Counted from the first letter of the stretch, positions 1 to 38,517 are shown. The stretch: 64,000 nt of DNA from a bacterium (GCA_030426085.1 JAUHYW010000060.1:1-64000), one strand, 5' to 3'. The notes: generated from the sequence alone by a model not told the origin. Translations and numbers: made by a program.

Positions 1-54
1 CGCCAGCAGAGCGCCCGCCAGCATCAACCCTCGCCAGACCCTTCGCGCGATCAC
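1..54 (-). CDS. 5' end of a signal-peptide protein running off the left window edge
   Basis: Minus-strand GTG at 54..52 is preceded by GGAGGG with a 6-nt spacer. It translates M/V-IARRVWRGLMLAGALLA, which looks like a signal peptide. The gene continues beyond position 1. Confidence 0.35.
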   Translation of the reverse strand, partial: MIARRVWRGLMLAGALLA

Positions 55-147
55 CGATCGCCCTCCATCATTGGTGACGACCCGCGGCGCGCGGGCCCGT
101 GGGCACTACGACACCCGAGCCGCGCAGCACGTCGCGCCCGATCATCA

Positions 148-199
148 TCCGCCCCAGTCGACAGGGGTCGGGCACGCGTCCGGTCGACAGGTGTCGGGC
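148..199. repeat. 2 x 26-bp direct repeat (gtcgacagg[gt]gtcgggca[ct]g[ct]gtccg)
   Basis: Seen directly in sequence, immediately 5' of the 42-bp array. Confidence 0.6.
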
Positions 200-204
200 A
201 TGTG

Positions 205-840
205 TCCGGCCCCCGACCGCTCGCGGGCCCGAGCTGCACCGGCGGACCCGCGCCCGCGAGGCGCCCGGACGCGAGGTGCACGGGCGGAATCCCGCTCGCG
301 CGCGTCGCGGGCCCGAGCTGCACCGACAGACCCGCGCCCGCGAGGCGCCCGGACGCGAGGTGCACGGGCGGAATCCCGCTCGCGCGCGTCGCGGGCCCGA
401 GCTGCACCGGCAGACCCGCGCCCGCGAGGCGCCCGGGCGCGAAGCGCACGGGCGGACGCCCACCCCCGACCGCTCGCGGGCCCGGGTTGCACGGTGAACC
501 TCACGCTCGCGAGCGTCGCGGGCCCGAGTTGCACGGTGATTCTTCCGCTCGTACGCGTCGCGGGCCCGAGCTGCACGGTGAACCTCACGCTCGCGAGCGT
601 CGCGGGCCCGAGTTGCACGGTGATTCTCCTGCTCGTACGCGTCGCGGGCCCGAGTTGCACGGTGCATCTCCCGCTCGCGAGCGCTCGCAGGCACGGGTTG
701 CACAGTGCATCTCCCGCTCGCGAGCGTCGCGGGCCCGAGTTGCACGGTGCATCTCCCGCTCGCGAGCGTCGCGGGCCCGAGGTGCGCCGTGCATCTCCCG
801 CGCGCGAGCGCTCGCAGGCCCGAGTCTCGCAGTGCACGGC
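205..840. repeat. Intergenic tandem repeat array, period 42 bp (84-bp super-units at 222-470), ~15 units
   Basis: Each unit has a conserved 24-bp core, gtcgcgggcccgag[ct]tgcac[cg]gtg. An 18-bp variable tail follows (aacctcacgctcgcgagc / attcttccgctcgtacgc / catctcccgctcgcgagc) that contains the perfect palindrome cgctcgcgagcg. Translations through it are low-complexity Arg/Ala, so it is judged non-coding. Confidence 0.85.
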
Positions 841-905
841 GCGTCCCCGAGCGCCGCGACGCCTCGATCCGCCGTGCAACAGGCGGCCGCGAGCCACCCG
901 GGCCC

Positions 906-1697
906 TCACCGCTCCCGCTCCCAGGTGACCGTCAGCGCCACCCGCTGCCCCGGCCCGTCGTCCAGCGCCGCCGGCATCCAATCGTAGCTCGCCAGCAGCC
1001 CCAGCCCGGCCCACGCCTTCACGAACAGCTTGCCCCCGACCCCGCCGGCCGTCGGGATCGGCGCCGGGGCGTCCGCCGGCTGGGGGCCATCCCGCCCGTA
1101 GGCCGGCTGCCAGCGCCCGGTCGCCGCCAGCCCCAGCCACGGCGTGACGAACCACCCGCCCTCGACCCGCACGTCCAGCGCGTTGCACACGCAGCCCAGC
1201 CGGGCCCGGTGCAGCAGCTCGACCGCCGCCCAGCCGGCCGCGAAGCCCCGCCCCCAGCCGGCGCCGACCAGCAGATCGAGCCCCCCGGGCCCCGTCGTCG
1301 GCGCGCCCGCCGCTCGCTCGGACACGCTCGGCGTCGAATACGGCGACACCCGCGCGCCGCCCCGCAGGGCCAGGGCGCTCGACCCGTTCACCAGGGCCCA
1401 CTCGGCCATGACCTCCACATCGCCCCAGCCCGTCGCCCGCCGGGTCTGCCCGGCCATCGTCAGCCGGTGATCGACGAAGCGCCCCGACGCGATCAGCTCC
1501 ACGTCGGCCCCGACCCCCACCTCGCCGTACAGCTCCAGCGCCCGCCCCTCGAAGCCGCCGCCCGAGACCTGCTCGGTCCCCTCGAACAGCGACGGCCCGG
1601 CCTGCAACCACACCCCGCCCGCCGGCCGGACCCAGGGCCCGGCGACCGCCGCGAGCGGGCTCAGCAGCGCGATGAGGACGAGACCGGCGCGGGACAT
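906..1697 (-). CDS. Secreted/outer-membrane protein (signal peptide, beta-rich)
   Basis: ORF with N-terminal MSRAGLVLIALLSPLAAVAGP signal peptide and Gly/aromatic-rich beta-strand-like composition. ATG at 1697. Confidence 0.5.
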   Translation of the reverse strand: MSRAGLVLIALLSPLAAVAGPWVRPAGGVWLQAGPSLFEGTEQVSGGGFEGRALELYGEVGVGADVELIASGRFVDHRLTMAGQTRRATGWGDVEVMAEWALVNGSSALALRGGARVSPYSTPSVSERAAGAPTTGPGGLDLLVGAGWGRGFAAGWAAVELLHRARLGCVCNALDVRVEGGWFVTPWLGLAATGRWQPAYGRDGPQPADAPAPIPTAGGVGGKLFVKAWAGLGLLASYDWMPAALDDGPGQRVALTVTWERER

Positions 1698-12903: not shown

Positions 12904-13003
12904 CTGATGCCCCGGTGCGCCGCTTCGGCGCAACTGCGCTCTTTCGGTGCACCACGATCGGGCATCGGGGCGCCGGCTGCGCCGCTCTGGCGGGCGCTGC
13001 GGG

Positions 13004-13018
13004 TGGCACGGCGGTTGC
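13004..13018 (+). promoter_or_regulatory. Sigma-54 (RpoN) -24/-12 promoter element TGGCAC-N5-TTGC
   Basis: tggcacggcggttgc matches consensus GG-N10-GC exactly. It lies ~35 nt upstream of the MVP-like ATG, with GGAGG RBS at 13042..13046. Confidence 0.45.
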
Positions 13019-13052
13019 GAATCGGGGTTGGCACCACCGAGGAGGCATTCCG

Positions 13053-15413
13053 ATGGACAACCGCCGTGAACGGGAGCTGGTGCTGGCCCCCAACGAATAC
13101 GCCTACGTGCTCGACACCACCAAGGGCCACATCAACTGCTATGTGGGCCCCAACAAGACCAGCCTGGCCCAGACCGACCAGCCGGTGGTGTTCAACAGCG
13201 GCTCGAAGCGCTTCGAGCCGGCGGTGCTCGAGGACGCGGTGCGCCTCTTCGCCACCGCCCCGGCCAACTGGTACATCGCGCTGAAGAACCCCGCCCGCGA
13301 CCGGGTGCACCCCAACCCGGGGGTGGCCAGCGTGGCCCCCGAGCTGCTCGTCGGGCTCAAGCACAACGTGCCGGGGCCGGCGGCGTTCGCCCTGTGGCCG
13401 GGGCAGATGGCGCGGGTGATCGAGGGCCACCGGCTGCGGGCCGACGAGTACCTCTACGTGCGCATCTACGACGCCGGGGCCGCCGCCGAGGCCGGCTGGC
13501 GGGCGCTGGGGCTGGCCGACGACCACGCCGAGCAGCCGCCCCGGTTCGCGGTGGGCCAGGGCTACGTGATCAAGGGCACCGACACCCGGTTCTACATCCC
13601 GCCGACCGGGGTCGAGGTCGTGCCCGAGGACGGGGGGAACTTCGTGCGGGCGGCGGTGCGGCTCGAGCGGCTGGAGTACTGCGTGCTGGTGGGCCACGAC
13701 GGCCAGCGGCGCACCATCCGGGGCGAGGCGATCGTCTTCCCCGGGCCCGACGAGCGGTTCGTGGTGCGCGAGGGGCGGCGCAAGTTCGAGGCGATCGAGC
13801 TCAGCGAGACCACCGGGCTGCACGTCAAGGTCACCGCGCCCTACACCGAGGCCGACGGCACCGCGCGCCGGGAGGGCGAGGAGCTGTTCATCACCGGCAG
13901 CGGGGTCATCTACTTCCCCCGCGACGCGCACGCGATCATCCGCCAGGGGGGCCGGGCGCTGCACCAGGCGGTGGCCATCCCCCGGGGCGAGGGGCGCTAC
14001 GTGCTGAGCCGGCACACCGGCGAGGTGGCGCTCAAGCGGGGGCCGGCGATGTTCCTGCCCGACCCCCGCCACGAGGTGATCATCCGCCGGGTGCTCGACG
14101 ACCGGGAGTGCGCGCTGCTCTTCCCGGGCAACCCCGACGCGCGGGCCTTCGGCCGGGCGGACGGGCGGCGGCCGGCGGCCGAGCCGAAGCCGGGGCGCAA
14201 GAGCCGGGGCGAGGGCGGGTCGGGCGCGCCGCTGGCGGTGGTCCGGCCGGCGTTCGAAGGGCCCCGCACGATCACCCTCGACACCCGCTACGCGGGCGCG
14301 GTGCGGGTCGACGTGCGGGCCGGCTTCGCGGTGCAGGTGGTCGACCAGAGCGGCGCCCGGCGGGTCGAGCAGGGGCCGACGGCGCTGTTGCTGGGCTACG
14401 ACGAGATGCTCCAGCCGCTGACGCTGTCCACCGGCACCCCCAAGTCCGACGCCCGCCGGCTGGAGACCGCCTACTTGCAGACCACCGGCAACAAGGTCGG
14501 CGACCGGCTGCTGCTGGTGACCCGGGATCAGGTCCGGGCCGAGCTGACCCTGGCCTATCGGGTCGACTTCGACGGCCCGCCCGAGCGGTGGTTCGCCGTC
14601 GAGGACTACGTCAAGCTGCTGTGCGACCACGCCGGCTCGATGATCAAGGCCCGGGCCCGCAAGCTGGACGTCGTGGCGTTGCAGGGCGACCTGACCCCGG
14701 TGGTGCGGGATCTCATCCTGGGGCCCCGGGGCGAGGGCGGCGAGCGGCCGGGGCTGGGGTTCTCCGAGAACGGCATGCGGGTCTACGACGTGGAGGTGCT
14801 CGCGCTCGAGATCGTCGACGAGGCGGTGCGGGCGCTGCTCGACGAGGCTCAGCTCGACGCGATGCAGCAGGCGCTGGCGGTGGGCGCCCGGGAGGCCGAG
14901 GTGGCCCGCCGACAGCGGCTGGAGGACGCCGAGCGGGCGCTGGATCGGGCGCTGGACGAGACCGCCGCGCTGCGGGCGGGCATCGCCGCCGAGCAGGCCC
15001 GCCGGGGCCATACCGAGGCCACCGCCGAGCGGGAGCGGCGGCTGGCCCTGGCCCGGATGGAGGCCGAGCAGGACCGGCTCGAGCTGGAGGCCGAGCTGGC
15101 GCTGCGGGCCCGGCGGCTGGCGGCAGAGGAGGCCGAGGACGCCGCCCGGCTCGAGAGCCGGCGGGCGAAGCAGGCGCTCGACCTGGAGGCGCTCGCCGCC
15201 CGGGTCGAGGGCGCGGTGCGGGCGGCGCAGGCGTTCGACCCCCACGTCGTGCACGCGGTCAACCGCCTCGGCGACCAGCAACTCGCCGCCGCCCTGGCCG
15301 AGAACTTCGGCGAGCTGGCGGCGGTGGAGGGCCGGGGGCTCTTGGAGACCGCCCGCAAGTTCCTCGACTTCGTGCCCGCCAGCCTCATGCCCCAGCTCCG
15401 CGAGCCGGGCTGA
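13053..15413 (+). CDS. Major vault protein (MVP) homolog: MVP repeat domains + SPFH-like shoulder + coiled-coil cap-helix
   Basis: N-terminus LAPNEYAYVLDTTKGHINCYVGPNKTSL... parallels MVP repeat 1 ([26 protein letters not shown]). Shoulder region LAYRVDFD...FAVEDYVKLLCDHAGSMIKARARKLDVVAL parallels MVP LAYNWHFE...[27 protein letters not shown]. The C-terminal ~150 aa is an Ala/Arg/Glu-rich coiled coil like the vault cap-helix. Confidence 0.75.
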   Translation: MDNRRERELVLAPNEYAYVLDTTKGHINCYVGPNKTSLAQTDQPVVFNSGSKRFEPAVLEDAVRLFATAPANWYIALKNPARDRVHPNPGVASVAPELLVGLKHNVPGPAAFALWPGQMARVIEGHRLRADEYLYVRIYDAGAAAEAGWRALGLADDHAEQPPRFAVGQGYVIKGTDTRFYIPPTGVEVVPEDGGNFVRAAVRLERLEYCVLVGHDGQRRTIRGEAIVFPGPDERFVVREGRRKFEAIELSETTGLHVKVTAPYTEADGTARREGEELFITGSGVIYFPRDAHAIIRQGGRALHQAVAIPRGEGRYVLSRHTGEVALKRGPAMFLPDPRHEVIIRRVLDDRECALLFPGNPDARAFGRADGRRPAAEPKPGRKSRGEGGSGAPLAVVRPAFEGPRTITLDTRYAGAVRVDVRAGFAVQVVDQSGARRVEQGPTALLLGYDEMLQPLTLSTGTPKSDARRLETAYLQTTGNKVGDRLLLVTRDQVRAELTLAYRVDFDGPPERWFAVEDYVKLLCDHAGSMIKARARKLDVVALQGDLTPVVRDLILGPRGEGGERPGLGFSENGMRVYDVEVLALEIVDEAVRALLDEAQLDAMQQALAVGAREAEVARRQRLEDAERALDRALDETAALRAGIAAEQARRGHTEATAERERRLALARMEAEQDRLELEAELALRARRLAAEEAEDAARLESRRAKQALDLEALAARVEGAVRAAQAFDPHVVHAVNRLGDQQLAAALAENFGELAAVEGRGLLETARKFLDFVPASLMPQLREPG

Positions 15414-15596
15414 TCGGCCCGGCGGGGCCCGACACCCGCAAATGCTCTTCGGTTGACGGGACAAGTGGTGTCCGCCGCCGGTCATCCGTTACATTCCTCA
15501 TATGCTGGCTCGGGCGCGGCGGCTGCCCGTCCGGCCGGAGGATGGAGCGCAAGGGGAGTGATGCAGGGCGGAGAGCATGCCCGCGGCGGCAGGAAG

Positions 15597-18500
15597 ATGG
15601 CGGCGCTGGCGCTGGCGATGGTCGGCCTGGCGCTGGGCTGCGGGGATCCCGAGGCCCTGGACCCGCCGCTCGAGCCCGACGCGGCGCTGTGCGGTTCGGG
15701 CTTCGACACGGTCGGCGATGAGTGCGTCGACATCGACGAGTGCGCGGCCGACCCCGGCCCGTGCGACGCGCGCACCACCTGCATCAACCTGCGCGGCGGC
15801 TTCTCGTGCGGCGCGTGCCCCGAGGGCTACGTGGGCGACGGGCTCGTCGACGGCGAGGGGTGCACCCTCGACTGCCCGCCGGGGCAGGCCGACGGCGGCG
15901 GCGGGCGGTGCGCGCCCCGGGGCACCTGCAATCCGGGCTACGAGCCGGGCCCCGACGGCGGCTGCGCGCCGCTGCAATGCCCGCCCGATCAGCACTTCGA
16001 CGGGGCCGAGGGCTGCGTGCCGCTCGGCGAGTGCGCCCCGGGGTTCGCGCCGGACGACGCGGGGGACTGCGTGGCCGGGCCGTGCCCCGCCGGTGAGCAC
16101 GACGACGGGACCGGGGCCTGCGCGCCGGAGGGCGAGTGCGCCGAGGGCTACCGGCTCGACGCGGCCGGCGACTGCGCGCCGCTGCCCGAGTGCCCCGAGG
16201 GCGAGCACCCGATCGGCGACGGGTCGTGCGGCCCCGCGGGCACCTGCGTCGATGGCTACGCGCTCGACGCCCAGGGCGACTGCCGCCCGCTGAGCTGCCC
16301 CGAGGACGACCCCCGCGAGCCGGACGACACCCCCGCCGAGGCCGACCCGCTGACCCCCGACGAGGCGGTGATCGGCGTCGCCTGCCCCGATGATCCGGAT
16401 CACTTCGCGCTGGACCCCGGCGCCCGCTGCCGGGTGGTGGCGGCCCTCACGGCGGTGGGATCCGAGCCGCTCGAGGCCGCGCTGACCCTGGTCGACGAGG
16501 GCGGGCGGCTGCTGACCGACGCCCCGGGGGGCGAGGCCCGCCTCGAGGTGGCCGGGCCGCTCTTCGCGGCGGTCGCGGGGGCCGGGCTGTACCGATTGCA
16601 GGTGCGATTCGAGGGCCACGATGGGGGCGACGGGGCCTGCGTCGAGCTCGGCGTGTGCTCTCCGGGCTACGCCGAGGACGACGCCGGGGCCTGCACGCGG
16701 TGCGCGGCCGGCTTCCGTGATGGGGGCGGCGGGGCCTGCGTGCCGCTGGGGGCCTGCGCGCCGGGCTTCGCGCTCGACCTGGACGGGTCGTGCCGGCAGA
16801 CGGCCGCGTGCCCGCCCGGCGCCCGGGACGACGGGGCCGGCGACTGCGCGCCCGACGGCGACCCCTGCGCCCCGGGCTTCGGCGACGACGGGGCCGGCGG
16901 CTGCGCCCCGCCGGGGGTCTGCGCGGCGGGCTTCGTGCTCGACGTGCTCGACCGCTGCCGGATGGCGACCGCGTGCCCCGTCGGCGAGCGCGACACCGGG
17001 GACGGCGCGTGCGGCGGGCCGTGCGCGTCGGGCTATCACGGCGGGGGCGGCGAGCCCGGGATCTGCCTGCCGGCGGGCGACTGCGCGCCGGGCTGGGTCG
17101 AGCGGGGGGACGGGACCTGCGACCGGGCCTGCCTCGGCGGCCTGGAGCGGGCCGGCGCGGTCTGTGTCGAGGACTTCACCTGCCCGGCGGACGACGGGAC
17201 CGAGGTGGACGAGCCGCGGGAGCTGAGCCCGGGGGCCAGCAAGTACGGGGTCGTGTGCCCGGGGGACGCCGACCGCTTCCGCCTCGCGCCGCCCACCGGC
17301 TGCGGGGTGCGCTTCATCTTGCGCTTCGACCCCGCCGAGGGGCCGCTGGTGCTCGAGGTCGGGGCCGAGGCGGCGCCGGCGACCGGCCGGGACGCGCCCG
17401 AGGGGCAGCGGCTGGTCGTCGAGGGGGTCGTCGGGCCGCTGGCGGTGCGGGTCCGGGGGGCCGACGACGAGGCCGGGGCCCGCTACGCGCTGCGGGTCGA
17501 CCTCGACGGCCACGACGGGGGCGACGGGACCTGCCAGCCGCTGGGGGCCTGCGCGGTGGGCTACGCGCTCGCGGCGGACGACAGCGGGGCCTGTGATCGC
17601 TGCGCGCCGGGCTTCGAGGACGGGGACGGCGGCGCGCCGGGCGTCGTCTGCGTGCCCGAAGGGGACTGCGCCGAGGGCTTCCACGACGGCGGCGACGGCG
17701 TCTGCGTGCCGGACGATCGCTGCGCGCCGGGCTTCGCGGACGGGGACGGCGACCGCCCGGGCATCGTCTGCGTGCCCGAGGGCACCTGCGCGGCGGGCTT
17801 CCACGACGGGGGCGACGGGGGCTGCGTGCCGGTCGACGCCTGCGCCGAGGGCTTCCACGACGGCGACGGCGCGGGCCCGGGCACCGTCTGCGTGCCCGAG
17901 GGGGCGTGCAGCGCGGGCTTCCACGACGGCGGCGACGGGGGCTGCGTGGCCCGGGGCGACTGCGCCGAGGGCTTCCACGACGGCGACGGCGCGGGGCCCG
18001 GCGACCGCTGCCTGCCGACGGGCGCGTGCCTGCGCGGGTGGCACGACGGGGGCGACGGGGTGTGCGTCGAGCGGGGGCTGTGCCGCGAGGGCTACCTCGA
18101 CCGGGGCGACGGGGTGTGCGTCGAGAACCTCTTGTTCGGCACCGTCTGCGCGCCGGGCCGGGGCTTCGCCTTCGAAGACGGCGGGGTCTGCGTCTGCAAC
18201 GAGGGCACCCGCGACGGGGGCGACGGGCGCTGCGTGCCGGAGGGCGCCTGCTCGCCCGGCTTCCGCCCCGACGCGCCGGAGACCGACGATCAGGGCGAGG
18301 CGCCGGCCTGCGCCCCGGTCGGGATCTGCGCCGCGGGGCACCACTCGACGCCGTGGGGGGCGTGCCGACCGACGGCGGCCTGCCCCGCGGGCGAGCGGGA
18401 CGACGGCATCGGGGCCTGCGTGCCCGAGGTGGCCGGCTGCGCCGACGGGTTCGCCGTCCGGGGCGAGGTGTGCGCCGCGCCGCCGGCCTGCGGGCCGGGG

Positions 18501-19736
18501 CACCACGACGCCGGCGACGGGACCTGCGCCCCGATCGGCGGCTGCGCCGACGGATTCCGACCGTCGGCGGCGGGCTGCGTGCCCCAGGGCCCGTGCAGCC
18601 CGCCCTCCGACTTCGCCGCCGGGCCCCCGATCGAGGTGGGGCCGCCGGTGGCCGGGGTGGCCTGCGGGCCGGACGTCTGGCGCTTCGACACCCCCCGGGG
18701 CTGCGGGGTCGAGGCCCGGCTGGTGGCCGATCCGGCGGCCGGCGCGGTCGACCTCGAGCTGTTCGACGCCGACGAGGCCCTGGTCGCGCGGGTCGAGGCG
18801 CTCGACGGCACCGCCCGCCTGTGGCTGCCGCCGGGCGAGCCCCGCCAGCTCCACCTGCGGGTGACGCCCTACCCCCCCGGCGCGGTCGATCCGGTGCCCT
18901 ATCGGCTGGCGCTCGTGGCCGATCCGCTGCGCTGCATGGCGGTCTGCCCGTTCGACCAGCGCCCCGACGGCGGCGGGCGCTGCGTGGACTTCGAGGCCGA
19001 CTGCGCCCCCGGCTGGCACGAGGGCGGGGACGGGGCCTGCGTGCCGCTCGATCGCTGCACCCCGGGCTTCCACGACGGGGGCGACGGGGTCTGCGTGCCG
19101 TTCGACGTCTGCCGCCCGGGGTATCGACTCACCGCCGAGCTGACCTGCGCCGCGGTCACCGCCGACTGTCCGCCGGGCGAGCGGGACAACGGCGGCGGTG
19201 TCTGCGCCCTCACCTGCGCCGTCGGGCAGGGCTACCACGAGGGCGGCGACGGCACCTGCGTGGCGACGCCCTACTGCGTGGCGGGCTACGCCGACGACGG
19301 CGGCGGGCTGTGCGTCGCCCGGACGCCGGAGGCCGAGTGCGCCCCGGACGTCTTCGAGGCCCGGCCCGACGGCGACGGCCTGTGCCTGCTGGTGCGCTGC
19401 ACCGACCTGGACGACGACACCGACGCGCTCGCCGAGGCGCTGCCGCTCGACGTGCGCCCCGGCGAGCCGACCGTGGTCTACGGGTCGCTGTGCCTGGCCG
19501 ACCCCGGCGACTGGTATCGGGTGGGCGGGGGCCACCTGCGGGCCCGCTTGCGCTTCGACCACGCCGACGGCGACCTGCGGCTGCGCTTCCTCGACGCCAA
19601 CGGGCTCGAGCTCGCCGCGGCCGACAGCGCCGATGACGACGAGGTGCTCGGGCTGCCCGGGGCCCCGGCCGAGGTCATCGTCGAGGTCACCGGGGAGAGC
19701 AGCGTCGGCTATCGGCTCGATCTGGTCCGGGATTGA
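15597..19736 (+). CDS. Giant Cys-rich repeat lipoprotein: lipobox, cbEGF-like domain, >40 Myxococcus-type Cys-rich repeats, four PPC-like beta-sandwich domains
   Basis: MAALALAMVGLALGC is a lipobox. CVDIDECAADPGPCDARTTCINLRGGFSCGACPEGY is a Ca-binding EGF. Repeated CxPGFxDGGDGxCVPxGxC units follow. There are four ~100-aa Cys-poor modules (e.g. GSLCLADPGDWYRVGGGHLRARLRFDHADGDLRLRFLDANG) with the D-x-D-x-Y/W-R PPC-like signature. Confidence 0.8.
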   Translation: MAALALAMVGLALGCGDPEALDPPLEPDAALCGSGFDTVGDECVDIDECAADPGPCDARTTCINLRGGFSCGACPEGYVGDGLVDGEGCTLDCPPGQADGGGGRCAPRGTCNPGYEPGPDGGCAPLQCPPDQHFDGAEGCVPLGECAPGFAPDDAGDCVAGPCPAGEHDDGTGACAPEGECAEGYRLDAAGDCAPLPECPEGEHPIGDGSCGPAGTCVDGYALDAQGDCRPLSCPEDDPREPDDTPAEADPLTPDEAVIGVACPDDPDHFALDPGARCRVVAALTAVGSEPLEAALTLVDEGGRLLTDAPGGEARLEVAGPLFAAVAGAGLYRLQVRFEGHDGGDGACVELGVCSPGYAEDDAGACTRCAAGFRDGGGGACVPLGACAPGFALDLDGSCRQTAACPPGARDDGAGDCAPDGDPCAPGFGDDGAGGCAPPGVCAAGFVLDVLDRCRMATACPVGERDTGDGACGGPCASGYHGGGGEPGICLPAGDCAPGWVERGDGTCDRACLGGLERAGAVCVEDFTCPADDGTEVDEPRELSPGASKYGVVCPGDADRFRLAPPTGCGVRFILRFDPAEGPLVLEVGAEAAPATGRDAPEGQRLVVEGVVGPLAVRVRGADDEAGARYALRVDLDGHDGGDGTCQPLGACAVGYALAADDSGACDRCAPGFEDGDGGAPGVVCVPEGDCAEGFHDGGDGVCVPDDRCAPGFADGDGDRPGIVCVPEGTCAAGFHDGGDGGCVPVDACAEGFHDGDGAGPGTVCVPEGACSAGFHDGGDGGCVARGDCAEGFHDGDGAGPGDRCLPTGACLRGWHDGGDGVCVERGLCREGYLDRGDGVCVENLLFGTVCAPGRGFAFEDGGVCVCNEGTRDGGDGRCVPEGACSPGFRPDAPETDDQGEAPACAPVGICAAGHHSTPWGACRPTAACPAGERDDGIGACVPEVAGCADGFAVRGEVCAAPPACGPGHHDAGDGTCAPIGGCADGFRPSAAGCVPQGPCSPPSDFAAGPPIEVGPPVAGVACGPDVWRFDTPRGCGVEARLVADPAAGAVDLELFDADEALVARVEALDGTARLWLPPGEPRQLHLRVTPYPPGAVDPVPYRLALVADPLRCMAVCPFDQRPDGGGRCVDFEADCAPGWHEGGDGACVPLDRCTPGFHDGGDGVCVPFDVCRPGYRLTAELTCAAVTADCPPGERDNGGGVCALTCAVGQGYHEGGDGTCVATPYCVAGYADDGGGLCVARTPEAECAPDVFEARPDGDGLCLLVRCTDLDDDTDALAEALPLDVRPGEPTVVYGSLCLADPGDWYRVGGGHLRARLRFDHADGDLRLRFLDANGLELAAADSADDDEVLGLPGAPAEVIVEVTGESSVGYRLDLVRD

Positions 19737-34285: not shown

Positions 34286-34311
34286 GGCGGCGCGAGACGA
34301 AAGGGGGGAGC

Positions 34312-35316
34312 ATGACGCGAGCAGTGACGCTGCTGGCCGCGGTCGCCGCGCTGGCGCTCGGGGGCTGTGACGACGAGCCGGCGGACGGCGCCGCCGATGT
34401 CGGCGGGGTGATGGACGCCGGGGGCGAGGGCGAGGGGGAAGGTGAGGGCGAGGGCGAAGGGGAAGGTGAGGGCGAAGGGGAAGGTGAGGGCGAGGGCGAG
34501 GGCGAAGGCGAGGGTGAGGGCGAAGGGGAAGGTGAGGGCGAAGGGGAAGGCGAGGGTGAGGGTGAGGGTGAGGGGGAAGGCGAGGGCGAGGGGGAAGGTG
34601 AGGGTGAGGGCGAGGGCGAGTCGGTGGGCCGGGATGGCCTCTTCGGCTCCGACGTCGAGACCTTCACCGTCGAGGTGGACTACGCCGTCGGCGCCGCCCC
34701 CGAGACCCGCCGCGAGGGCCTGCTGAACAACCGCAGCCCGTGGACCCTGTTCGAGACCAACGCCCTGGCGCTCTTCGGCGACGACCCGCCGATGCTCATC
34801 GTGCCCCGCGAGCTGGACGAGATGGAGGCGCTGCCGGCCGACGCCGCGCCGCTCGACGACTACCGCGGCCGCGAGATCCTGGACCTCGCCGAGGTCTACC
34901 GCGACACCCCGTCCCGCCCCGCCGAGCGCAGCGTCTACGTGATCTGGCTCAACGGCTACTACGAGGACGACAGCGGCCGGCGGGACACGGTGCTGGGCGT
35001 CTCGCTGGGCGATTCGGGGGTCATCGCCATGTTCAAGCCGGTGCTCGAGCGGGTGAGCAACACCCCCATCGCCGAGCAGACGACGCTGGTGCACGAGTTC
35101 GGCCACGCCGCGGGGCTGGTGAACAACGGGCTGGAGCAGGTCGAGGACCACCACGACAGCGAGCACGGGGCCCACTGCAGCAACGAGGACTGCGTGATGT
35201 TCTGGCTCGTCGAGAGCGCCGCCGGGCTGGGGGACTTCCTCGGGCTGCTCGGCGGCGGCGACGACCCGGTGCTCTTCGGGCCCGAGTGCCTCGACGACGC
35301 CCGGGCGGCCGAGTGA
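34312..35316 (+). CDS. Lipoprotein zinc metalloprotease-like (HExxH) with (GE)n acidic linker
   Basis: LALGGC lipobox, ~33 x Gly-Glu, then a domain with VHEFGHAAGL...EDHHDSEHGAHCSNEDC. RBS aaagggggga upstream. Confidence 0.6.
   Translation: MTRAVTLLAAVAALALGGCDDEPADGAADVGGVMDAGGEGEGEGEGEGEGEGEGEGEGEGEGEGEGEGEGEGEGEGEGEGEGEGEGEGEGEGEGEGEGEGEGESVGRDGLFGSDVETFTVEVDYAVGAAPETRREGLLNNRSPWTLFETNALALFGDDPPMLIVPRELDEMEALPADAAPLDDYRGREILDLAEVYRDTPSRPAERSVYVIWLNGYYEDDSGRRDTVLGVSLGDSGVIAMFKPVLERVSNTPIAEQTTLVHEFGHAAGLVNNGLEQVEDHHDSEHGAHCSNEDCVMFWLVESAAGLGDFLGLLGGGDDPVLFGPECLDDARAAE
34422..34620 (+). repeat. In-frame hexanucleotide (ggcgag/ggtgag/ggggaa)n repeat encoding (Gly-Glu)~33
   Basis: Seen in sequence, inside CDS 34312..35316. 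Confidence 0.8.
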
Positions 35317-36137
35317 TGGGGGCCGCGACGCGCCGCGGGCGCCGGACGACGCCGGCTCTGCTCACGCTGGCCCTGCTCGCGCTGGCTCCCCCGGCCTGCG
35401 ACGACGAGGGCCCGGGCGGCGGCGGCGACGCGGGCCCCGTCGGGCGGGCGGGGCTCTTCACCGCTGCGGTCGAGTCGCTGACGATCGAGGTGGACTACGC
35501 GCCCGGCGCCGCCCCCGAGGTGCGCTACGGCGGGCTGCTGGCCGGCGACCGCAGCCCGTGGGACATCTTCGAGGCCAACGTCGACGCGCTCTACGACGGC
35601 GCCCCGCCGACGCTGATCCTGCCCCGGGCGCTGGACGCCATGCAGGCCCTGCCCGACGACCTCGGCGGCCCGGACTACACCGGCGACGCCATCACAGCCC
35701 TGGCCGATCGCTTCCGGGACACCCCGTCGACCTCCGCCGACCGCAGCGTGTACGTCATCTGGCTCGACGGCTACTACGCCGACGACTCGGGGCGCCGGGA
35801 CACGGTGCTGGGGGTGTCGCTGGGCGATACCGGGGTCATCGCGATGTTCAAGCCGGTCATCGCGAGCGCGGGGCAGGTGGCTCGGGTCGAGCAGACGACG
35901 CTGGTGCACGAGTTCGGCCACGCCGCCGGGCTGGTGAACAACGGGCTGGCCCAGGTCGAGGACCACCACGACGCCGAGCACGGGGCCCACTGCAGCAACG
36001 AGGACTGCGTGATGTACTGGGCCATCGAGACCGTCGGCGGGGTGCGCGACTTCGTCGGCGCGCTGCTCGGGGGCGACGACCCCCGGGTGCTGTTCGGGCC
36101 GGAGTGCCTGGCCGACGCCCACGCCGCCGGAGGTTGA
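35316..36137 (+). CDS. Paralogous lipoprotein zinc metalloprotease-like (HExxH), no GE linker
   Basis: TGATG overlap with the upstream paralog. ~75% identical catalytic region (VHEFGHAAGLVNNGLAQVEDHHDAEHGAHCSNEDC). Confidence 0.6.
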   Translation: MGAATRRGRRTTPALLTLALLALAPPACDDEGPGGGGDAGPVGRAGLFTAAVESLTIEVDYAPGAAPEVRYGGLLAGDRSPWDIFEANVDALYDGAPPTLILPRALDAMQALPDDLGGPDYTGDAITALADRFRDTPSTSADRSVYVIWLDGYYADDSGRRDTVLGVSLGDTGVIAMFKPVIASAGQVARVEQTTLVHEFGHAAGLVNNGLAQVEDHHDAEHGAHCSNEDCVMYWAIETVGGVRDFVGALLGGDDPRVLFGPECLADAHAAGG

Positions 36138-36158
36138 CGGCGGCGCCGCGGCGCGGCC

Positions 36159-37253
36159 TCACGCCGCCTGTGGCTCGGGCCCCACGTAATGCGCCCGGGG
36201 GCGGATCAGCCGCGCCTCGCGGCGCTGCTCGAGGACGTGCCCCAGCCAGCCCACCACCCGACCGCAGGCGAAAAGCGGGGTGAAGTCGCGGCGGTCGATG
36301 CCGATCGCGTCGAGGATGACCGCGGTCATGAACTCCACGTTGGCCGCCAGCGCCCGATCTGGATGGCGGGCCTTCAACAGCGCGGTCGCCTCGGCCTCGA
36401 CGGCCGCCGCCAGCGCCAGCCGATCGCGCGCCCGCCCGGCCTCGGCCAGCTTCGCGACCCCCGCCTCGAGCACCGCCGCCCGGGGGTCGCGCACCCGGTA
36501 GACCCGGTGGCCCATACCCATGATGCGCCGGCCGGCGGCCAGCTCGGCCTCCAGCCACGCCCGGGCCCGCGCCCGATCGGGCGACCCGATCGCGTCGAGC
36601 ATGTCGAGCACCGGCCCCGGCGCGCCCCCGTGCAGCGGGCCCTTGAGCGCGCCGAGCGCCGCGACCACCGCCGAGACCGCGTCCGATCCGGTCGAGGTCA
36701 CCACCCGGGCGGTGAAGGTCGAGGCGTTCATGCCGTGGTCGACCACCGTCACCAGATAACGCCGCAGCGCGTCGGCCGACGTCTCGTCGGCTCGACCGGT
36801 GAACAGCCGCAGCAGATCGGCGGCGTGCGGCGCGGCCGGGTCAGGGACCAGCGGCTCGAGGCCGCGGCGCAGCCGGGACTGCGCCGCGGCGAAGACCGCG
36901 ACCGCCCCGGCGATCGTGGGCAGCTCGGCCTCGGCCGCGTCCGGCGCCCCGCCGTCCAGGTGCCCGACGGCGGCCCGCAGCGCGTCCATGCCGTCCGCCG
37001 CCCGCAGCGCGTCGCCCAGCGCGGGCAGCATCTCGTGGGCCGCAGCCCGGGCCGCGCCCAGCCGGTGCTCGATGGCCGGCCCCGCGCCGCGGTCGCCGCG
37101 CCACATCAACCCGCACACCTCACCGAGAGACGCCGCCTCGGCGAGCGCCTCCACCCGGTGCCCGCGCAGCACCAGCGCGCCCGCGTCGCCGTCCACCCGG
37201 CTCAGCGTCGTCTCGGTGACGACGATCCCCTGCAATCCGCTCGCGATCTTCAT
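36159..37253 (-). CDS. Citrate synthase (short, CitA/archaeal-type) family protein
   Basis: GPLHGGA, GMGHRVYRVRDPR and DPNVEF-type motifs. ATG at 37253 with GGAGG RBS. The track ORF extends to a GTG at 37280. Confidence 0.8.
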   Translation of the reverse strand: MKIASGLQGIVVTETTLSRVDGDAGALVLRGHRVEALAEAASLGEVCGLMWRGDRGAGPAIEHRLGAARAAAHEMLPALGDALRAADGMDALRAAVGHLDGGAPDAAEAELPTIAGAVAVFAAAQSRLRRGLEPLVPDPAAPHAADLLRLFTGRADETSADALRRYLVTVVDHGMNASTFTARVVTSTGSDAVSAVVAALGALKGPLHGGAPGPVLDMLDAIGSPDRARARAWLEAELAAGRRIMGMGHRVYRVRDPRAAVLEAGVAKLAEAGRARDRLALAAAVEAEATALLKARHPDRALAANVEFMTAVILDAIGIDRRDFTPLFACGRVVGWLGHVLEQRREARLIRPRAHYVGPEPQAA

Positions 37254-37300
37254 GACGGCCTCCAACGTGACGCTGGACACCGTAGCGGGGGCTCTATAGA

Positions 37301-37344: not shown

Positions 37345-38517
37345 ATGGCCGAGACGATCGACGCCCGACAGGCTGCCCGGCTGCTGGGGGTGCAGGTGCG
37401 CACGCTCTACGCCTACGTGAGCCGGGGGCGGCTGGAGAGCCTGCCCGGTCCGGGGCGGGCGAAGCGCTATCGGCGGGCCGACATCGAGCGTCTGCGGCGC
37501 AACCGGGAGGGGGTCGACGCCGCGTTGAGCTGGGGGCAGCCGGTGCTCGAGTCGGCGATCACCGAGATCACCGCCGAGGGCCCGGTCTACCGGGGGCACC
37601 CGGCGATCGGGCTGGCCGAGCGGGGGGCGGCTTTCGAGGCGGTGGCCGAGCTGCTGTGGACCGGCGCGCAGCCGGCGGGGCGGCCGTCCTGGGTCGCGGG
37701 CGCCGAGCCGTCGACGCCGCCGCTCCCGCCCGACGCCGATCCCCTCGCCCGGCTGGCGCTGCTGGTGCCGTGGATGGCGGTGCACGACCCGGGGCGCTTC
37801 AACCGGCGGCCGGCGGCGGTGATCGATCGGGCGCGGCGCGTCATCCGGCGCATGGCCCACGCCCTGGGCCCGCCGGAGCGCCCGACGCCCGGGGCGGGGA
37901 CGGTCGCCGAGCGCCTGGCGGTCGGGTGGGCCGGCCGCCCCGAGGCCGCGGCGGCGCTGGACGCGGCGTTGATCCTGTGGGCCGACCACGAGCTGAACGT
38001 GTCGTCGTTCGCCGCGCGGGTGACGGCCTCGGCTCAGGCCGATGTCTACGCCTGCGTCTCGGCCGGTCTGGCGGCGCTCAGCGGGCCGCGCCACGGCACC
38101 CACTGCGAGCGGGTGGGCGCGCTGGTGGCCGAGATCGGCCGCCCCGAGCGGGCCGAGGCGGTGGTGCACGCCCGCATCCGCCGGGGCGAGGCGCTGCCCG
38201 GCTTCGGCCACCCGCTGTACCCCGCCGGTGATCCCCGCGCGGCCGCCCTGCTGGGGGTGGCGCGGACGCTGGGCACGCCGCCCCGGGTCGAGGCGGCCCT
38301 GGCGCTCATCGAGGTCGCCGCCCGCGAGCTGGAGGCGGCGCCGAACATCGACCTGGGCCTGATCGCGCTGACCGAGGCCCTGGGGCTGCCCCCCCGGGAG
38401 GCGCCGGGCCTGATCGCGGTCGGGCGGACGGCGGGCTGGGTGGCCCACGCGCTGGAGCAGTACGCATCGGGCGCTCTCATCCGGCCCCGGGCGCGGTTCG
38501 TCGGGGGGAGCGGCTGA
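37345..38517 (+). CDS. Excisionase/MerR-type HTH DNA-binding domain fused to a citrate-synthase-like domain (putative metabolite-sensing transcription factor)
   Basis: N-terminus ARLLGVQVRTLYAYVSRGRLESL is an HTH_17/excisionase-type. Remainder ...LWADHELNVSSFAARV...GPRHGTHCE...GFGHPLYPAGDPRA... is the citrate synthase small/large-domain core. Confidence 0.75.
   Translation: MAETIDARQAARLLGVQVRTLYAYVSRGRLESLPGPGRAKRYRRADIERLRRNREGVDAALSWGQPVLESAITEITAEGPVYRGHPAIGLAERGAAFEAVAELLWTGAQPAGRPSWVAGAEPSTPPLPPDADPLARLALLVPWMAVHDPGRFNRRPAAVIDRARRVIRRMAHALGPPERPTPGAGTVAERLAVGWAGRPEAAAALDAALILWADHELNVSSFAARVTASAQADVYACVSAGLAALSGPRHGTHCERVGALVAEIGRPERAEAVVHARIRRGEALPGFGHPLYPAGDPRAAALLGVARTLGTPPRVEAALALIEVAARELEAAPNIDLGLIALTEALGLPPREAPGLIAVGRTAGWVAHALEQYASGALIRPRARFVGGSG

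What the first reader, a model, noticed from the sequence alone, without database searches (positions are those of the whole stretch)
148..840. Composite tandem repeat array (2 x 26 bp, then ~15 x 42 bp with internal palindromes) in an intergenic region
The 42-bp units share a 24-bp constant part and an 18-bp variable part falling into three subtypes. Each contains the perfect palindrome cgctcgcgagcg. The left third is organised as 84-bp super-units. It is not CRISPR: the period is too short, the variable parts are near-identical families, and there is no cas. It may be a REP/BIME-like element, a protein-binding array or a recombination hotspot. It sits upstream of a minus-strand gene that starts at the window edge.
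Basis: seen in the sequence. Interest (0 to 1): 0.55.

Follow-up and report, generated by a model that had tools for sequence, protein, structure and literature searches.

The report
Lineage-specific GC-rich intergenic minisatellite
An 850-base gap between two genes of an uncultured myxobacterium-like genome is filled with about 15 head-to-tail copies of a 42-base GC-rich unit; this is real non-coding repeat DNA seen nowhere else searched, most likely an ordinary, unstable bacterial minisatellite and not a new genetic system.

Summary
The array is real. There are 2 x 26 bp at 157-209 and 15 units of 42/43 bp at 221-852, far beyond chance. Some details were wrong. The perfect 12-bp palindrome occurs in 5 of 15 units. 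There are five unit types plus two degenerate units, and the truly variable stretch is about 9 nt.

It is a composite of two sub-arrays: 3 x 84 bp, then a-b-a-b-c-c'-c-c''. Each opens with the same exact 22-mer. It fills the 852-bp spacer between the stop of a 263-aa gene (906-1697, minus) and the start of a minus-strand gene that runs off the window.

It is non-coding. The non-repeat spacer has no GC3 signal, +1 indels break the unit frame, and no protein resembles four of its translated frames. It matches no Rfam family.

No second copy was found in the 64-kb window, 185,579 species-representative genomes, JGI metagenomes, viral contigs, plasmids or phages. Seven relatives (67-83% identical flanking protein) have no array and carry different downstream genes. 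Short-read contigs of 97-100% relatives all stop at window base 856.

Best reading: a young, lineage-specific higher-order minisatellite grown by slippage or unequal recombination at a variable junction. A protein-binding role (sopC-like phasing) is not excluded. Interest is low.

The parts
1..54 (-). 5' end of a minus-strand gene that runs off the window. GTG start at 54-52, preceded by GGAGG at 66-62. The first 18 codons read MIARRVWRGLMLAGALLA, which looks like a signal peptide.
   Evidence: Sequence read. Only 18 codons are visible, so the gene's identity is unknown. 15 of the 18 third positions are G or C.
157..209 (.). Two direct 26-bp repeats (157-182 and 183-208), each holding a short dyad (CGACA..TGTCG / CGAC..GTCG). 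They lie 100-155 bp upstream of the left gene's start. They are possibly an operator or promoter element; this is an inference only.
   Evidence: TRF period 26, 2.0 copies, 88% match. The pattern has 2 matches in the window against 0.07 expected.
210..231 (.). Exact 22-mer CCCCCGACCGCTCGCGGGCCCG (11-nt leader plus unit start) that opens sub-array A. The same 22-mer opens sub-array B at 463-484.
   Evidence: Read from the sequence. The spacing is 253 bp, which is 3 x 84 + 1.
221..473 (.). Sub-array A: three 84-bp super-units, each made of two alternating 42-bp unit types. The last half-unit (431-473) is degenerate and 43 bp long. Each super-unit holds 26-nt inverted arms, 77-81% complementary, 17 nt apart. 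These form a hairpin of about 40 nt.
   Evidence: The blocks are 97.6% and 86.9% identical.
463..484 (.). Second copy of the 22-mer leader and unit start, opening sub-array B.
474..810 (.). Sub-array B: eight 42/43-bp direct units in the order a, b, a, b, c, c', c, c''. The consensus is TCGCGGGCCCGAGTTGCACGGTGAATCTCCCGCTCGCGAGCG. The a-b dimers are 95% identical to each other, and the two c units (642 and 727) are identical.
811..852 (.). Degenerate terminal unit.
   Evidence: nhmmer E = 3e-05 at 812-853.
856..905 (-). Unique 50-bp 3' flank of gene 906-1697. It is identical in four short-read contigs, all of which end at base 856. It contains a small hairpin at 869-886 (CCGCC N8 GGCGG). A weak inverted copy of the unit core lies at 866-892 (21 of 27 bases).
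906..1697 (-). Upstream flanking gene of 263 aa with no Pfam family. In most relatives it sits next to a molybdopterin oxidoreductase gene.
   Evidence: GC3 of 0.95-0.97. Homologues at 67-97% identity. No Pfam family.

Best explanation
This is a non-coding, lineage-specific composite minisatellite (a higher-order tandem repeat) in the 852-bp spacer between two co-directional genes of an uncultured Myxococcota-like chromosome.

Inferred history: a hairpin-prone, GC-rich 42-bp unit preceded by an 11-nt leader was duplicated once as a segment, which is why the same 22-mer sits at 210 and 463. The two copies then expanded separately. Expansion went mostly in 84/85-bp dimers, through replication slippage or unequal recombination between direct repeats. 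The internal palindromes probably helped by forming hairpins on single-stranded DNA.

The array is expected to vary in copy number between strains. Any effect on the cell is probably incidental. It may space or insulate the two genes, and its very stable GC hairpins may impede read-through from the upstream gene.

Shown: the anatomy, the non-coding nature, the uniqueness in every collection searched, the absence from relatives, and the assembly break at its edge. Inferred: the growth mechanism, the instability and any transcriptional effect.
For: Array and higher-order structure. Identical or near-identical units recur at 84/85-bp distance: 263 = 347, 642 = 727, and 474 vs 558 and 516 vs 600 at 40 of 42. 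Different unit types are only 62-90% alike. This is the signature of recent block duplication.

The same exact 22-mer precedes both sub-arrays.

Non-coding:
- The non-repeat spacer 54-220 has position-3 GC of 0.66, against 0.97 in the neighbouring gene.
- +1 indels at 473 and 684 shift the unit frame.
- No protein among 5.8 billion clusters matches four open frames of the array.

No Rfam family at the gathering threshold, and only sub-threshold miRNA-hairpin noise at E of 1 or less.

Not dispersed where it could be tested. No plasmid or phage similarity.

Seven relatives whose flanking protein is 67-83% identical have no tandem array. Each has a different gene after the conserved one, so the array is young and sits at a variable junction.

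Four contigs from four sequencing runs, covering 100% and 97% relatives, all end at window base 856. Yet the 31-mers from 786 to 880 are unique in the window. This implies that the sequence beyond 856 differs within those populations.

Inverted arms and folding more stable than shuffles, z = -2.9 and -3.4, fit hairpin-assisted slippage.
Against: Only one genome copy of the array is available, so copy-number variation is inferred and was not observed.

The rest of the source genome could not be searched. The source appears to be a 67.8-kb NCBI contig that could not be retrieved. Other loci of the same family therefore cannot be excluded.

The unit length of 42 bp is exactly four helical turns. 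The block CGAG-N-TGCAC is kept in 13 of the 15 units, including the otherwise divergent left-hand types. Either feature could reflect selection for a bound protein rather than neutrality.

The contig breaks at 856 could mark presence or absence of a larger inserted segment rather than array-length variation.
Confidence: 0.6

Rival explanations
1. The array is a phased protein-binding array. Each 42-bp unit, four helical turns long, presents a dyad (CGCTCGCGAGCG, CGGGCCCG or TGCACnGTGCA) to a dimeric DNA-binding protein. The complex could be centromere-like, as at F-plasmid sopC, or it could regulate the gene at the window edge.
For: Unit length and copy number resemble sopC, which has 12 direct repeats of 43 bp, each with a 16-bp inverted repeat bound by SopB (PMC3177203, found).

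Dyads are present in every unit in some form. The block CGAG-N-TGCAC is conserved across divergent unit types.

The array lies upstream of a gene start, next to a separate 2 x 26-bp dyad-containing repeat.
Against: No ParA, ParB or other partner gene was found in the 36 window proteins scanned. The right-hand neighbours are an unannotated 263-aa protein and a molybdopterin oxidoreductase.

No parS, DnaA-box, sigma-54 or ECF-like motif is present in 1-1000.

The context is chromosomal housekeeping (IleRS, citrate synthase, PntB), and there is no similarity to any plasmid or phage.

The perfect palindrome is in only 5 of 15 units, and two +1 indels disturb the phasing. The array is absent from all relatives, so it serves no conserved function. 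Twelve-bp perfect palindromes are common in this GC-rich window, with 51 outside the spacer.
Confidence: 0.13
2. The array is one cluster of a dispersed intergenic repeat family, like REP/BIME in enterobacteria or MIRU in mycobacteria. Further copies would lie outside the 64-kb window.
For: It lies between co-directional genes, directly after a stop codon. The 42-bp unit falls in the REP/MIRU size range. In the left third, half-units alternate and pair as 26-nt inverted arms, as in BIMEs. A weak inverted solitary copy of the core lies in the adjacent flank at 866-892. MIRUs are minisatellites with copy-number variation (PMC3635867, found).
Against: The unit profile finds no other copy in the remaining ~63 kb of the window. 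It finds none in about 90 kb of relatives' loci.

The 19-nt core gives only single hits that do not extend over a unit: 26 in 596 Gb of species-representative genomes and 61 in JGI metagenomes.

Most units are direct repeats and do not alternate in orientation. No transposase-like (RAYT) domain was seen in the scanned proteins.
Confidence: 0.12
3. The array is transcribed on the minus strand and acts as structured RNA. It would be either a long structured intercistronic or 5'-UTR element that terminates or stabilises transcripts, or an array of small RNAs.
For: Both flanking genes are on the minus strand, so the array is probably transcribed at least by read-through. The minus-strand RNA folds more stably than shuffles: -194.5 kcal/mol with z = -2.9, and -224.8 kcal/mol with z = -3.4.
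Against: There is no Rfam family. There are no terminator-like hairpins with a U-tract and no promoter-like sites. The z-scores are modest and are expected for any DNA with inverted repeats. No relatives are available for a covariation test. The 42-bp units are too short to be independent sRNA genes.
Confidence: 0.06
4. The order or number of units is an assembly artefact of a metagenome-assembled contig. A real but shorter or different repeat would have been mis-resolved.
For: The source appears to be a MAG contig; a 100% IleRS match lies on a 67,790-bp NCBI contig. Independent short-read assemblies never cross the array. The array lies within 150 bp of the window start.
Against: The longest exact internal repeat is 81 bp, and all 99-mers are unique. 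Ordinary 150-bp reads or a large k can therefore resolve it. The ordered subtype structure and the two independent +1 indels are not what collapsed or looped assemblies usually give. The systematic break of four assemblies at its edge shows that something repetitive or variable really starts there.
Confidence: 0.05
5. The array encodes a repetitive protein with 14-residue repeats.
For: The period is a multiple of 3. Long ORFs cross it in four frames. Within the repeats one unit-relative phase is GC-rich, 0.91-0.94. ORF 51-449 (minus strand) ends in a GTGA overlap with the next gene's start.
Against: The +1 indels at 473 and 684 change the repeat frame. The non-repeat part of every candidate ORF lacks GC3 bias, 0.64-0.70. 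The GC-phase signal comes from one 84-bp sequence copied three times. No homologue exists in 5.8 billion protein clusters. Long ORFs in all frames are expected at 77% GC.
Confidence: 0.02

Closest known systems
Bacterial intergenic minisatellites / VNTR loci, e.g. mycobacterial interspersed repetitive units (MIRU)
   Same: Both are tandem head-to-tail units of 40-100 bp. Both occur in GC-rich genomes, in a spacer between co-directional genes, are non-coding, and evolve by gain and loss of units. MIRU copy-number variation is documented in PMC3635867.
   Different: MIRUs are one family present at dozens of loci in a genome. Here no second locus was found in anything searchable. Copy-number variation is only inferred. 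The array is a composite of five unit types with 84-bp higher-order periodicity.
REP / BIME clusters of enterobacteria and pseudomonads
   Same: Both are intergenic, lie directly 3' of a gene, and have GC-rich imperfect palindromes of about 35-40 nt. The left third has alternating half-units that pair as inverted arms.
   Different: REPs are dispersed in hundreds of copies and are linked to RAYT transposases. Here the sequence is unique in 64 kb and in all collections. Most units are direct repeats and do not alternate in orientation.
F-plasmid centromere sopC
   Same: sopC has 12 direct repeats of 43 bp, each carrying an inverted repeat (PMC3177203). This array has about 15 direct repeats of 42/43 bp carrying dyads. 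Both have a period of about four helical turns.
   Different: sopC lies next to sopA and sopB on a plasmid and its units are nearly identical. Here the context is chromosomal housekeeping genes with no partition genes in view. The units are heterogeneous, and the sequence has no similarity to plasmids.
CRISPR arrays
   Same: Both have a regular alternation of a conserved part and a more variable part.
   Different: The period is 42 bp. The variable part is about 9 nt and recurs in families. No cas genes were seen, and the sub-arrays show higher-order duplication. This is not a CRISPR array.

Membership tests
CRISPR array | Identical repeats of about 23-50 bp separated by unique spacers of similar length | tested here: not met
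   The period is 42/43 bp in total. The variable block is about 9 nt and recurs as types a, b and c.
CRISPR array | cas genes nearby | tested here: not met
   There were no Cas domains in the 36 proteins scanned across the window. The left flank beyond the window was not visible.
REP/BIME | Dispersed family with many copies in intergenic regions of the same genome | tested here: inconclusive
   There is no other copy in the 64-kb window. Only chance single hits turned up in the public collections. The rest of the source genome was not available.
REP/BIME | Imperfect palindromic units in alternating orientation | tested here: inconclusive
   The left sub-array has 26-nt inverted arms within each 84-bp super-unit. 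The eight right-hand units are all direct repeats.
REP/BIME | Associated RAYT (Y1 transposase) in the genome | not testable with these tools
   The whole genome is not available. None was seen among the scanned window proteins.
MIRU-type minisatellite / VNTR | Tandem 40-100-bp units in a non-coding spacer between genes | tested here: met
MIRU-type minisatellite / VNTR | Copy number differs between strains | not testable with these tools
   The evidence is indirect only. Four contigs of 97-100% relatives all stop at base 856 although the 31-mers there are unique. No second assembled copy of the array exists.
MIRU-type minisatellite / VNTR | Same unit family at several loci of the genome (the 'interspersed' part) | tested here: inconclusive
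   None was found in 64 kb. The whole genome is not available.
sopC-type partition centromere | About 10-12 direct repeats of about 43 bp, each with an inverted-repeat binding site | tested here: inconclusive
   Period and copy number fit. The perfect 12-bp palindrome is in only 5 of 15 units, and the units are heterogeneous.
sopC-type partition centromere | Adjacent parA/parB (sopA/sopB) genes, on a plasmid or other separately segregating replicon | tested here: not met
   There were no ParA or ParB domains in the scanned proteins, and the context is chromosomal housekeeping. There is no plasmid similarity. Caveat: only 54 nt to the left of the spacer is visible.
Iteron-type replication origin | Iterons next to an AT-rich unwinding region and DnaA boxes | tested here: not met
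   GC is 77% throughout 1-2000. There is no DnaA box with up to 1 mismatch in the whole window.
Any Rfam RNA family | Score at or above the family's gathering threshold | tested here: not met
   There were 0 matches at the gathering threshold in the window. Only miRNA-hairpin matches far below threshold appeared at E of 1 or less.
Protein-coding tandem repeat | One conserved reading frame with this genome's codon-position GC pattern, and homologous proteins | tested here: not met
   There are frame-shifting indels. The non-repeat parts have no GC3 bias. There were no homologues.

The most novel reading that the evidence does not exclude
The array is a chromosomal, sopC-like loading platform. 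It would offer fifteen dyad sites phased at four helical turns, nucleating a large nucleoprotein complex (partition-, silencing- or insulator-like) in an uncultured Myxococcota lineage. The binding protein might be encoded to the left of the window.
Probability: 0.06. Interest if true: 0.6.

Novelty: new member of a known kind. Interest (0 to 1): 0.2.

Why it matters
Little follows if the main reading holds. Intergenic minisatellites are well known in bacteria, and this one would mainly serve as a strain-typing (VNTR) marker for an uncultured Myxococcota lineage. It would also explain why short-read assemblies break at this spot.

It is a tidy example of higher-order (dimer-based) repeat growth in a 74%-GC genome, at a junction where gene content differs in every relative examined.

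It would matter more only if the regularly phased dyads turn out to recruit a protein.

Tried and rejected
- Dispersed family. I ran exact scans of the 19-nt core in genome contigs (26 single hits), metagenome contigs (61 single hits) and viral contigs (0). BLAST and nhmmer of the whole spacer and unit profile against all fetched loci showed that the hits stop after 19-30 nt. The best, L020 (a Polyangia MAG), lies inside a signal-peptide coding region. L012, L026, L077 and L089 are unrelated sequences.
- Finding related arrays through spurious ORF calls. Four open translated frames, concatenated, found no protein in 5.8 billion clusters. The two frames with stop codons were left out.
- Recovering the gene to the left of the window. 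Exact-protein look-ups returned only short Logan contigs that end at the array. The 100%-identical IleRS sits on a 67.8-kb NCBI contig that is not on record for retrieval. A 10-20-kb contig reported in the block counts was never shown.
- Synteny. Seven relatives were fetched and none has an array, so no covariation or conservation test of the units was possible.
- Other rejected identities: Rfam, tRNA/tmRNA, sigma-70 promoters and intrinsic terminators, plasmid and phage similarity.
- Motif scans for DnaA box, parS, sigma-54 and ECF-like promoters found nothing in 1-1000.
- MITE with terminal inverted repeats. There is only a weak 21/27 inverted copy of the unit core at 866-892, and no convincing terminal repeats around 54-905.
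- Literature. I found no description of such arrays in myxobacteria.

Full report
**Observation**

Tandem Repeats Finder reports a 26-bp unit x2.0 at 157-209 (88% match). It also reports a 42-bp unit x14.3 at 221-825 (score 458), with overlapping 84- and 127-bp periodicities. Written in register, the units start at 221, 263, 305, 347, 389, 431, 474, 516, 558, 600, 642, 685, 727, 769 and 811. A 23-nt core with up to 3 mismatches occurs 7 times and a 27-nt core 6 times. Neither occurs in 100 dinucleotide-preserving shuffles of the window.

Several details need correction:
- The perfect palindrome CGCTCGCGAGCG is present in 5 of the 15 units, not in each.
- The three subtypes describe only the eight right-hand units. 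The left part has two further alternating types, and units 431 and 811 are degenerate.
- Within the right-hand units, positions 1-23 and 33-42 are conserved. Only about 9 nt (positions 24-32) really vary.
- Two units are 43 bp long.

**Anatomy**

The array is a composite of two sub-arrays.
- Sub-array A (221-473) is three 84-bp super-units. Copies 1 and 2 are 97.6% identical. Each super-unit has two alternating half-units whose 26-nt arms are 77-81% complementary, with 17 nt between them.
- Sub-array B (474-810) is eight direct units in the order a-b-a-b-c-c'-c-c''. The a-b dimers are 95% identical, and the c units at 642 and 727 are identical.
- A degenerate unit follows at 811-852.
- Both sub-arrays are opened by the same exact 22-mer, CCCCCGACCGCTCGCGGGCCCG, at 210-231 and 463-484.

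Near-identity recurs at a distance of 84/85 bp, whereas different unit types are only 62-90% alike (26-38 of 42 positions). This is the pattern left by a segmental duplication followed by independent, recent block amplifications.

**Context**

The window is 70-80% GC. It carries chromosomal housekeeping genes: isoleucyl-tRNA synthetase, two citrate synthase homologues, PntB, TRAP transporter subunits, a TonB-dependent receptor and a Ser/Thr kinase. The best named relatives of its IleRS are Myxococcota MAGs at about 71% identity.

The array fills the spacer 55-905. To the right lies the stop codon of a 263-aa gene on the minus strand (906-1697; GC3 0.95-0.97; no Pfam family). To the left, a minus-strand gene starts at GTG 54-52, behind GGAGG at 66-62, and leaves the window after 18 codons. 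The array is therefore both 3' of one gene and 5' of the next. The 2 x 26-bp repeat lies 100-155 bp upstream of the second gene's start.

**Coding is rejected**

- Long ORFs cross the array in four frames, but that is expected at 77% GC.
- Real genes here have third-position GC of 0.93-0.98. The non-repeat part of the spacer has 0.64-0.70 in the best candidate frame.
- The GC-rich phase inside the repeats (0.91-0.94) comes from one short sequence copied several times. It shifts by one base between the sub-arrays because of the +1 indel at 473.
- A concatenation of the four open translated frames found no similar protein among 5.8 billion clusters.

**No RNA family**

- No Rfam family reaches its gathering score in the window. 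At E of 1 or less there are only far-sub-threshold microRNA hairpin matches.
- There are no tRNAs or tmRNAs.
- There are no sigma-70-like promoters and no U-tract terminators in 1-2000.
- Minus-strand RNA folds somewhat better than shuffles, with z = -2.9 and -3.4. Any sequence with inverted repeats would do so.

**Is it a dispersed family?**

- A profile of the 15 units run at maximum sensitivity finds all 15 units and nothing else in 64 kb. The best outside hit has E = 0.09.
- Exact scans with a 19-nt degenerate core gave 26 single hits in 596 Gb of species-representative genomes. They gave 61 single hits in the JGI metagenome contigs and none in viral contigs.
- BLAST and nhmmer against these loci show matches that stop after about 19-30 nt. 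None is tandem.
- The three I inspected were a signal-peptide coding region, a shared unrelated sequence, and a low-GC intergenic stretch.
- Plasmid and phage collections give no match.
- The remainder of the source genome could not be reached. The 100% IleRS match is on a 67,790-bp NCBI contig that is not on record for retrieval. Dispersal within that genome therefore remains formally open.

**Relatives**

The 263-aa flanking protein has homologues at 97, 83, 81, 78, 75, 72, 68 and 67% identity. In the seven relatives at 67-83% identity there is no array, and the next gene is different in nearly every case. It is a convergent gene, a 679-aa gene, a small cupin-like gene, or an SMC_N/AAA ATPase pair. 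The array is therefore young, and it sits at a junction where gene content turns over.

For the 100% and 97% relatives, four short-read contigs from four runs all end at exactly window base 856. Their other ends fall at different places. The 31-mers from 786 to 880 are unique in the window, so a k = 31 assembly of this exact sequence should have continued for about 70 more bases. The common stop implies that the sequence to the left of 856 differs among the genotypes in those samples. That could be array-length or unit-order variation, or presence or absence of a larger segment.

The longest exact internal repeat is 81 bp and all 99-mers are unique. The structure in the window is therefore resolvable by ordinary reads and is probably not an assembly artefact.

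**Mechanism**

The best-supported reading is a lineage-specific higher-order minisatellite. It would grow and shrink by replication slippage or unequal recombination between direct repeats, with the palindromes favouring hairpins that promote slippage. This is inferred from the duplication pattern and was not observed directly. Effects on the flanking genes (spacing, insulation, obstruction of read-through by stable GC hairpins) are plausible but untested.

**Main rival**

The chief rival is a phased protein-binding array. Forty-two bp is four helical turns. CGAG-N-TGCAC is kept in 13 of 15 units, including the divergent types. The numbers also recall F-plasmid sopC, which has 12 direct repeats of 43 bp, each with a 16-bp inverted repeat bound by SopB (PMC3177203).

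Against this reading:
- No partition or other partner genes are in view.
- No parS, DnaA-box, sigma-54 or ECF-like motifs are present.
- The dyads are heterogeneous, and 12-bp palindromes are common in this window.
- The array is absent from all relatives.

**Comparison and verdict**

The closest known kind is the bacterial intergenic minisatellite or VNTR, such as the mycobacterial MIRUs (PMC3635867). This array matches them in unit size, location and non-coding nature. The interspersed aspect of MIRUs was not found here. It is not CRISPR, not a demonstrable REP/BIME member, not an iteron origin, not an Rfam RNA and not a gene. I rate it a new member of a known kind, of low general interest (0.2). 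There is a small chance, about 6%, that the phased dyads mark a protein-loading platform, which would be more interesting.

Noticed in passing
window 34300-36140: Two tandem paralogous lipoprotein-like genes, roughly 34.3-35.3 kb and 35.3-36.1 kb, lie 815 bp apart with 70-88% DNA identity between blocks. Each has an HEFGHAAG zinc-metalloprotease-like motif. The first carries a run of about 33 Gly-Glu dipeptides (GGGCGA x33 at 34422-34620) right after its lipoprotein signal.
   Followed up: partly
window 15453-19736: A 1427-aa ORF is built of many Cys-rich repeats, with 54-, 105- and 120-bp coding periodicities and a recurring C..GF.D.GDG.C motif. This is typical of the large secreted repeat proteins of myxobacteria. 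A related repeat (DGDG..DCDD) occurs at 29.6 kb and 47.7-48.4 kb.
   Followed up: no
window 12915-15413: An 832-aa protein matches the Major Vault Protein shoulder and repeat domains (PF11978 at 5e-15, PF17795). This is a eukaryote-type vault protein homologue in a bacterial chromosome.
   Followed up: no
window 856 / loci L001, L002, L098, L099: Four short-read contigs from four different sequencing runs all end at exactly the same base, 50 bp after the stop of gene 906-1697. Their other ends differ, and the local 31-mers are unique in the window. This marks a population-level variable junction.
   Followed up: partly
loci L092, L095, L097, L100, L103, L105, L106 (downstream of the homologue of gene 906-1697): The position after this conserved gene holds a different gene in almost every relative. 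One case is an SMC_N/AAA_15/AAA_21 ATPase pair that looks defence-like (L100). Gene order around the Mo-oxidoreductase cluster is also rearranged. This is a local hotspot of gene turnover.
   Followed up: partly
window 221-810, plus strand, one unit-relative frame: The unit's GC-rich phase translates as ..L(P/T)LASVAGPSCTV.., which resembles the end of a lipoprotein signal peptide. The best outside DNA hit (L020, a Polyangia MAG) is a real signal peptide reading ALAALAGPSCTG. The unit may descend from a coding fragment, or this may be coincidence.
   Followed up: partly
window 37345-38517: A citrate synthase homologue is fused to an N-terminal MerR/HTH_17 DNA-binding domain. It lies divergent from a second, plain citrate synthase gene at 36159-37280.
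   Followed up: no
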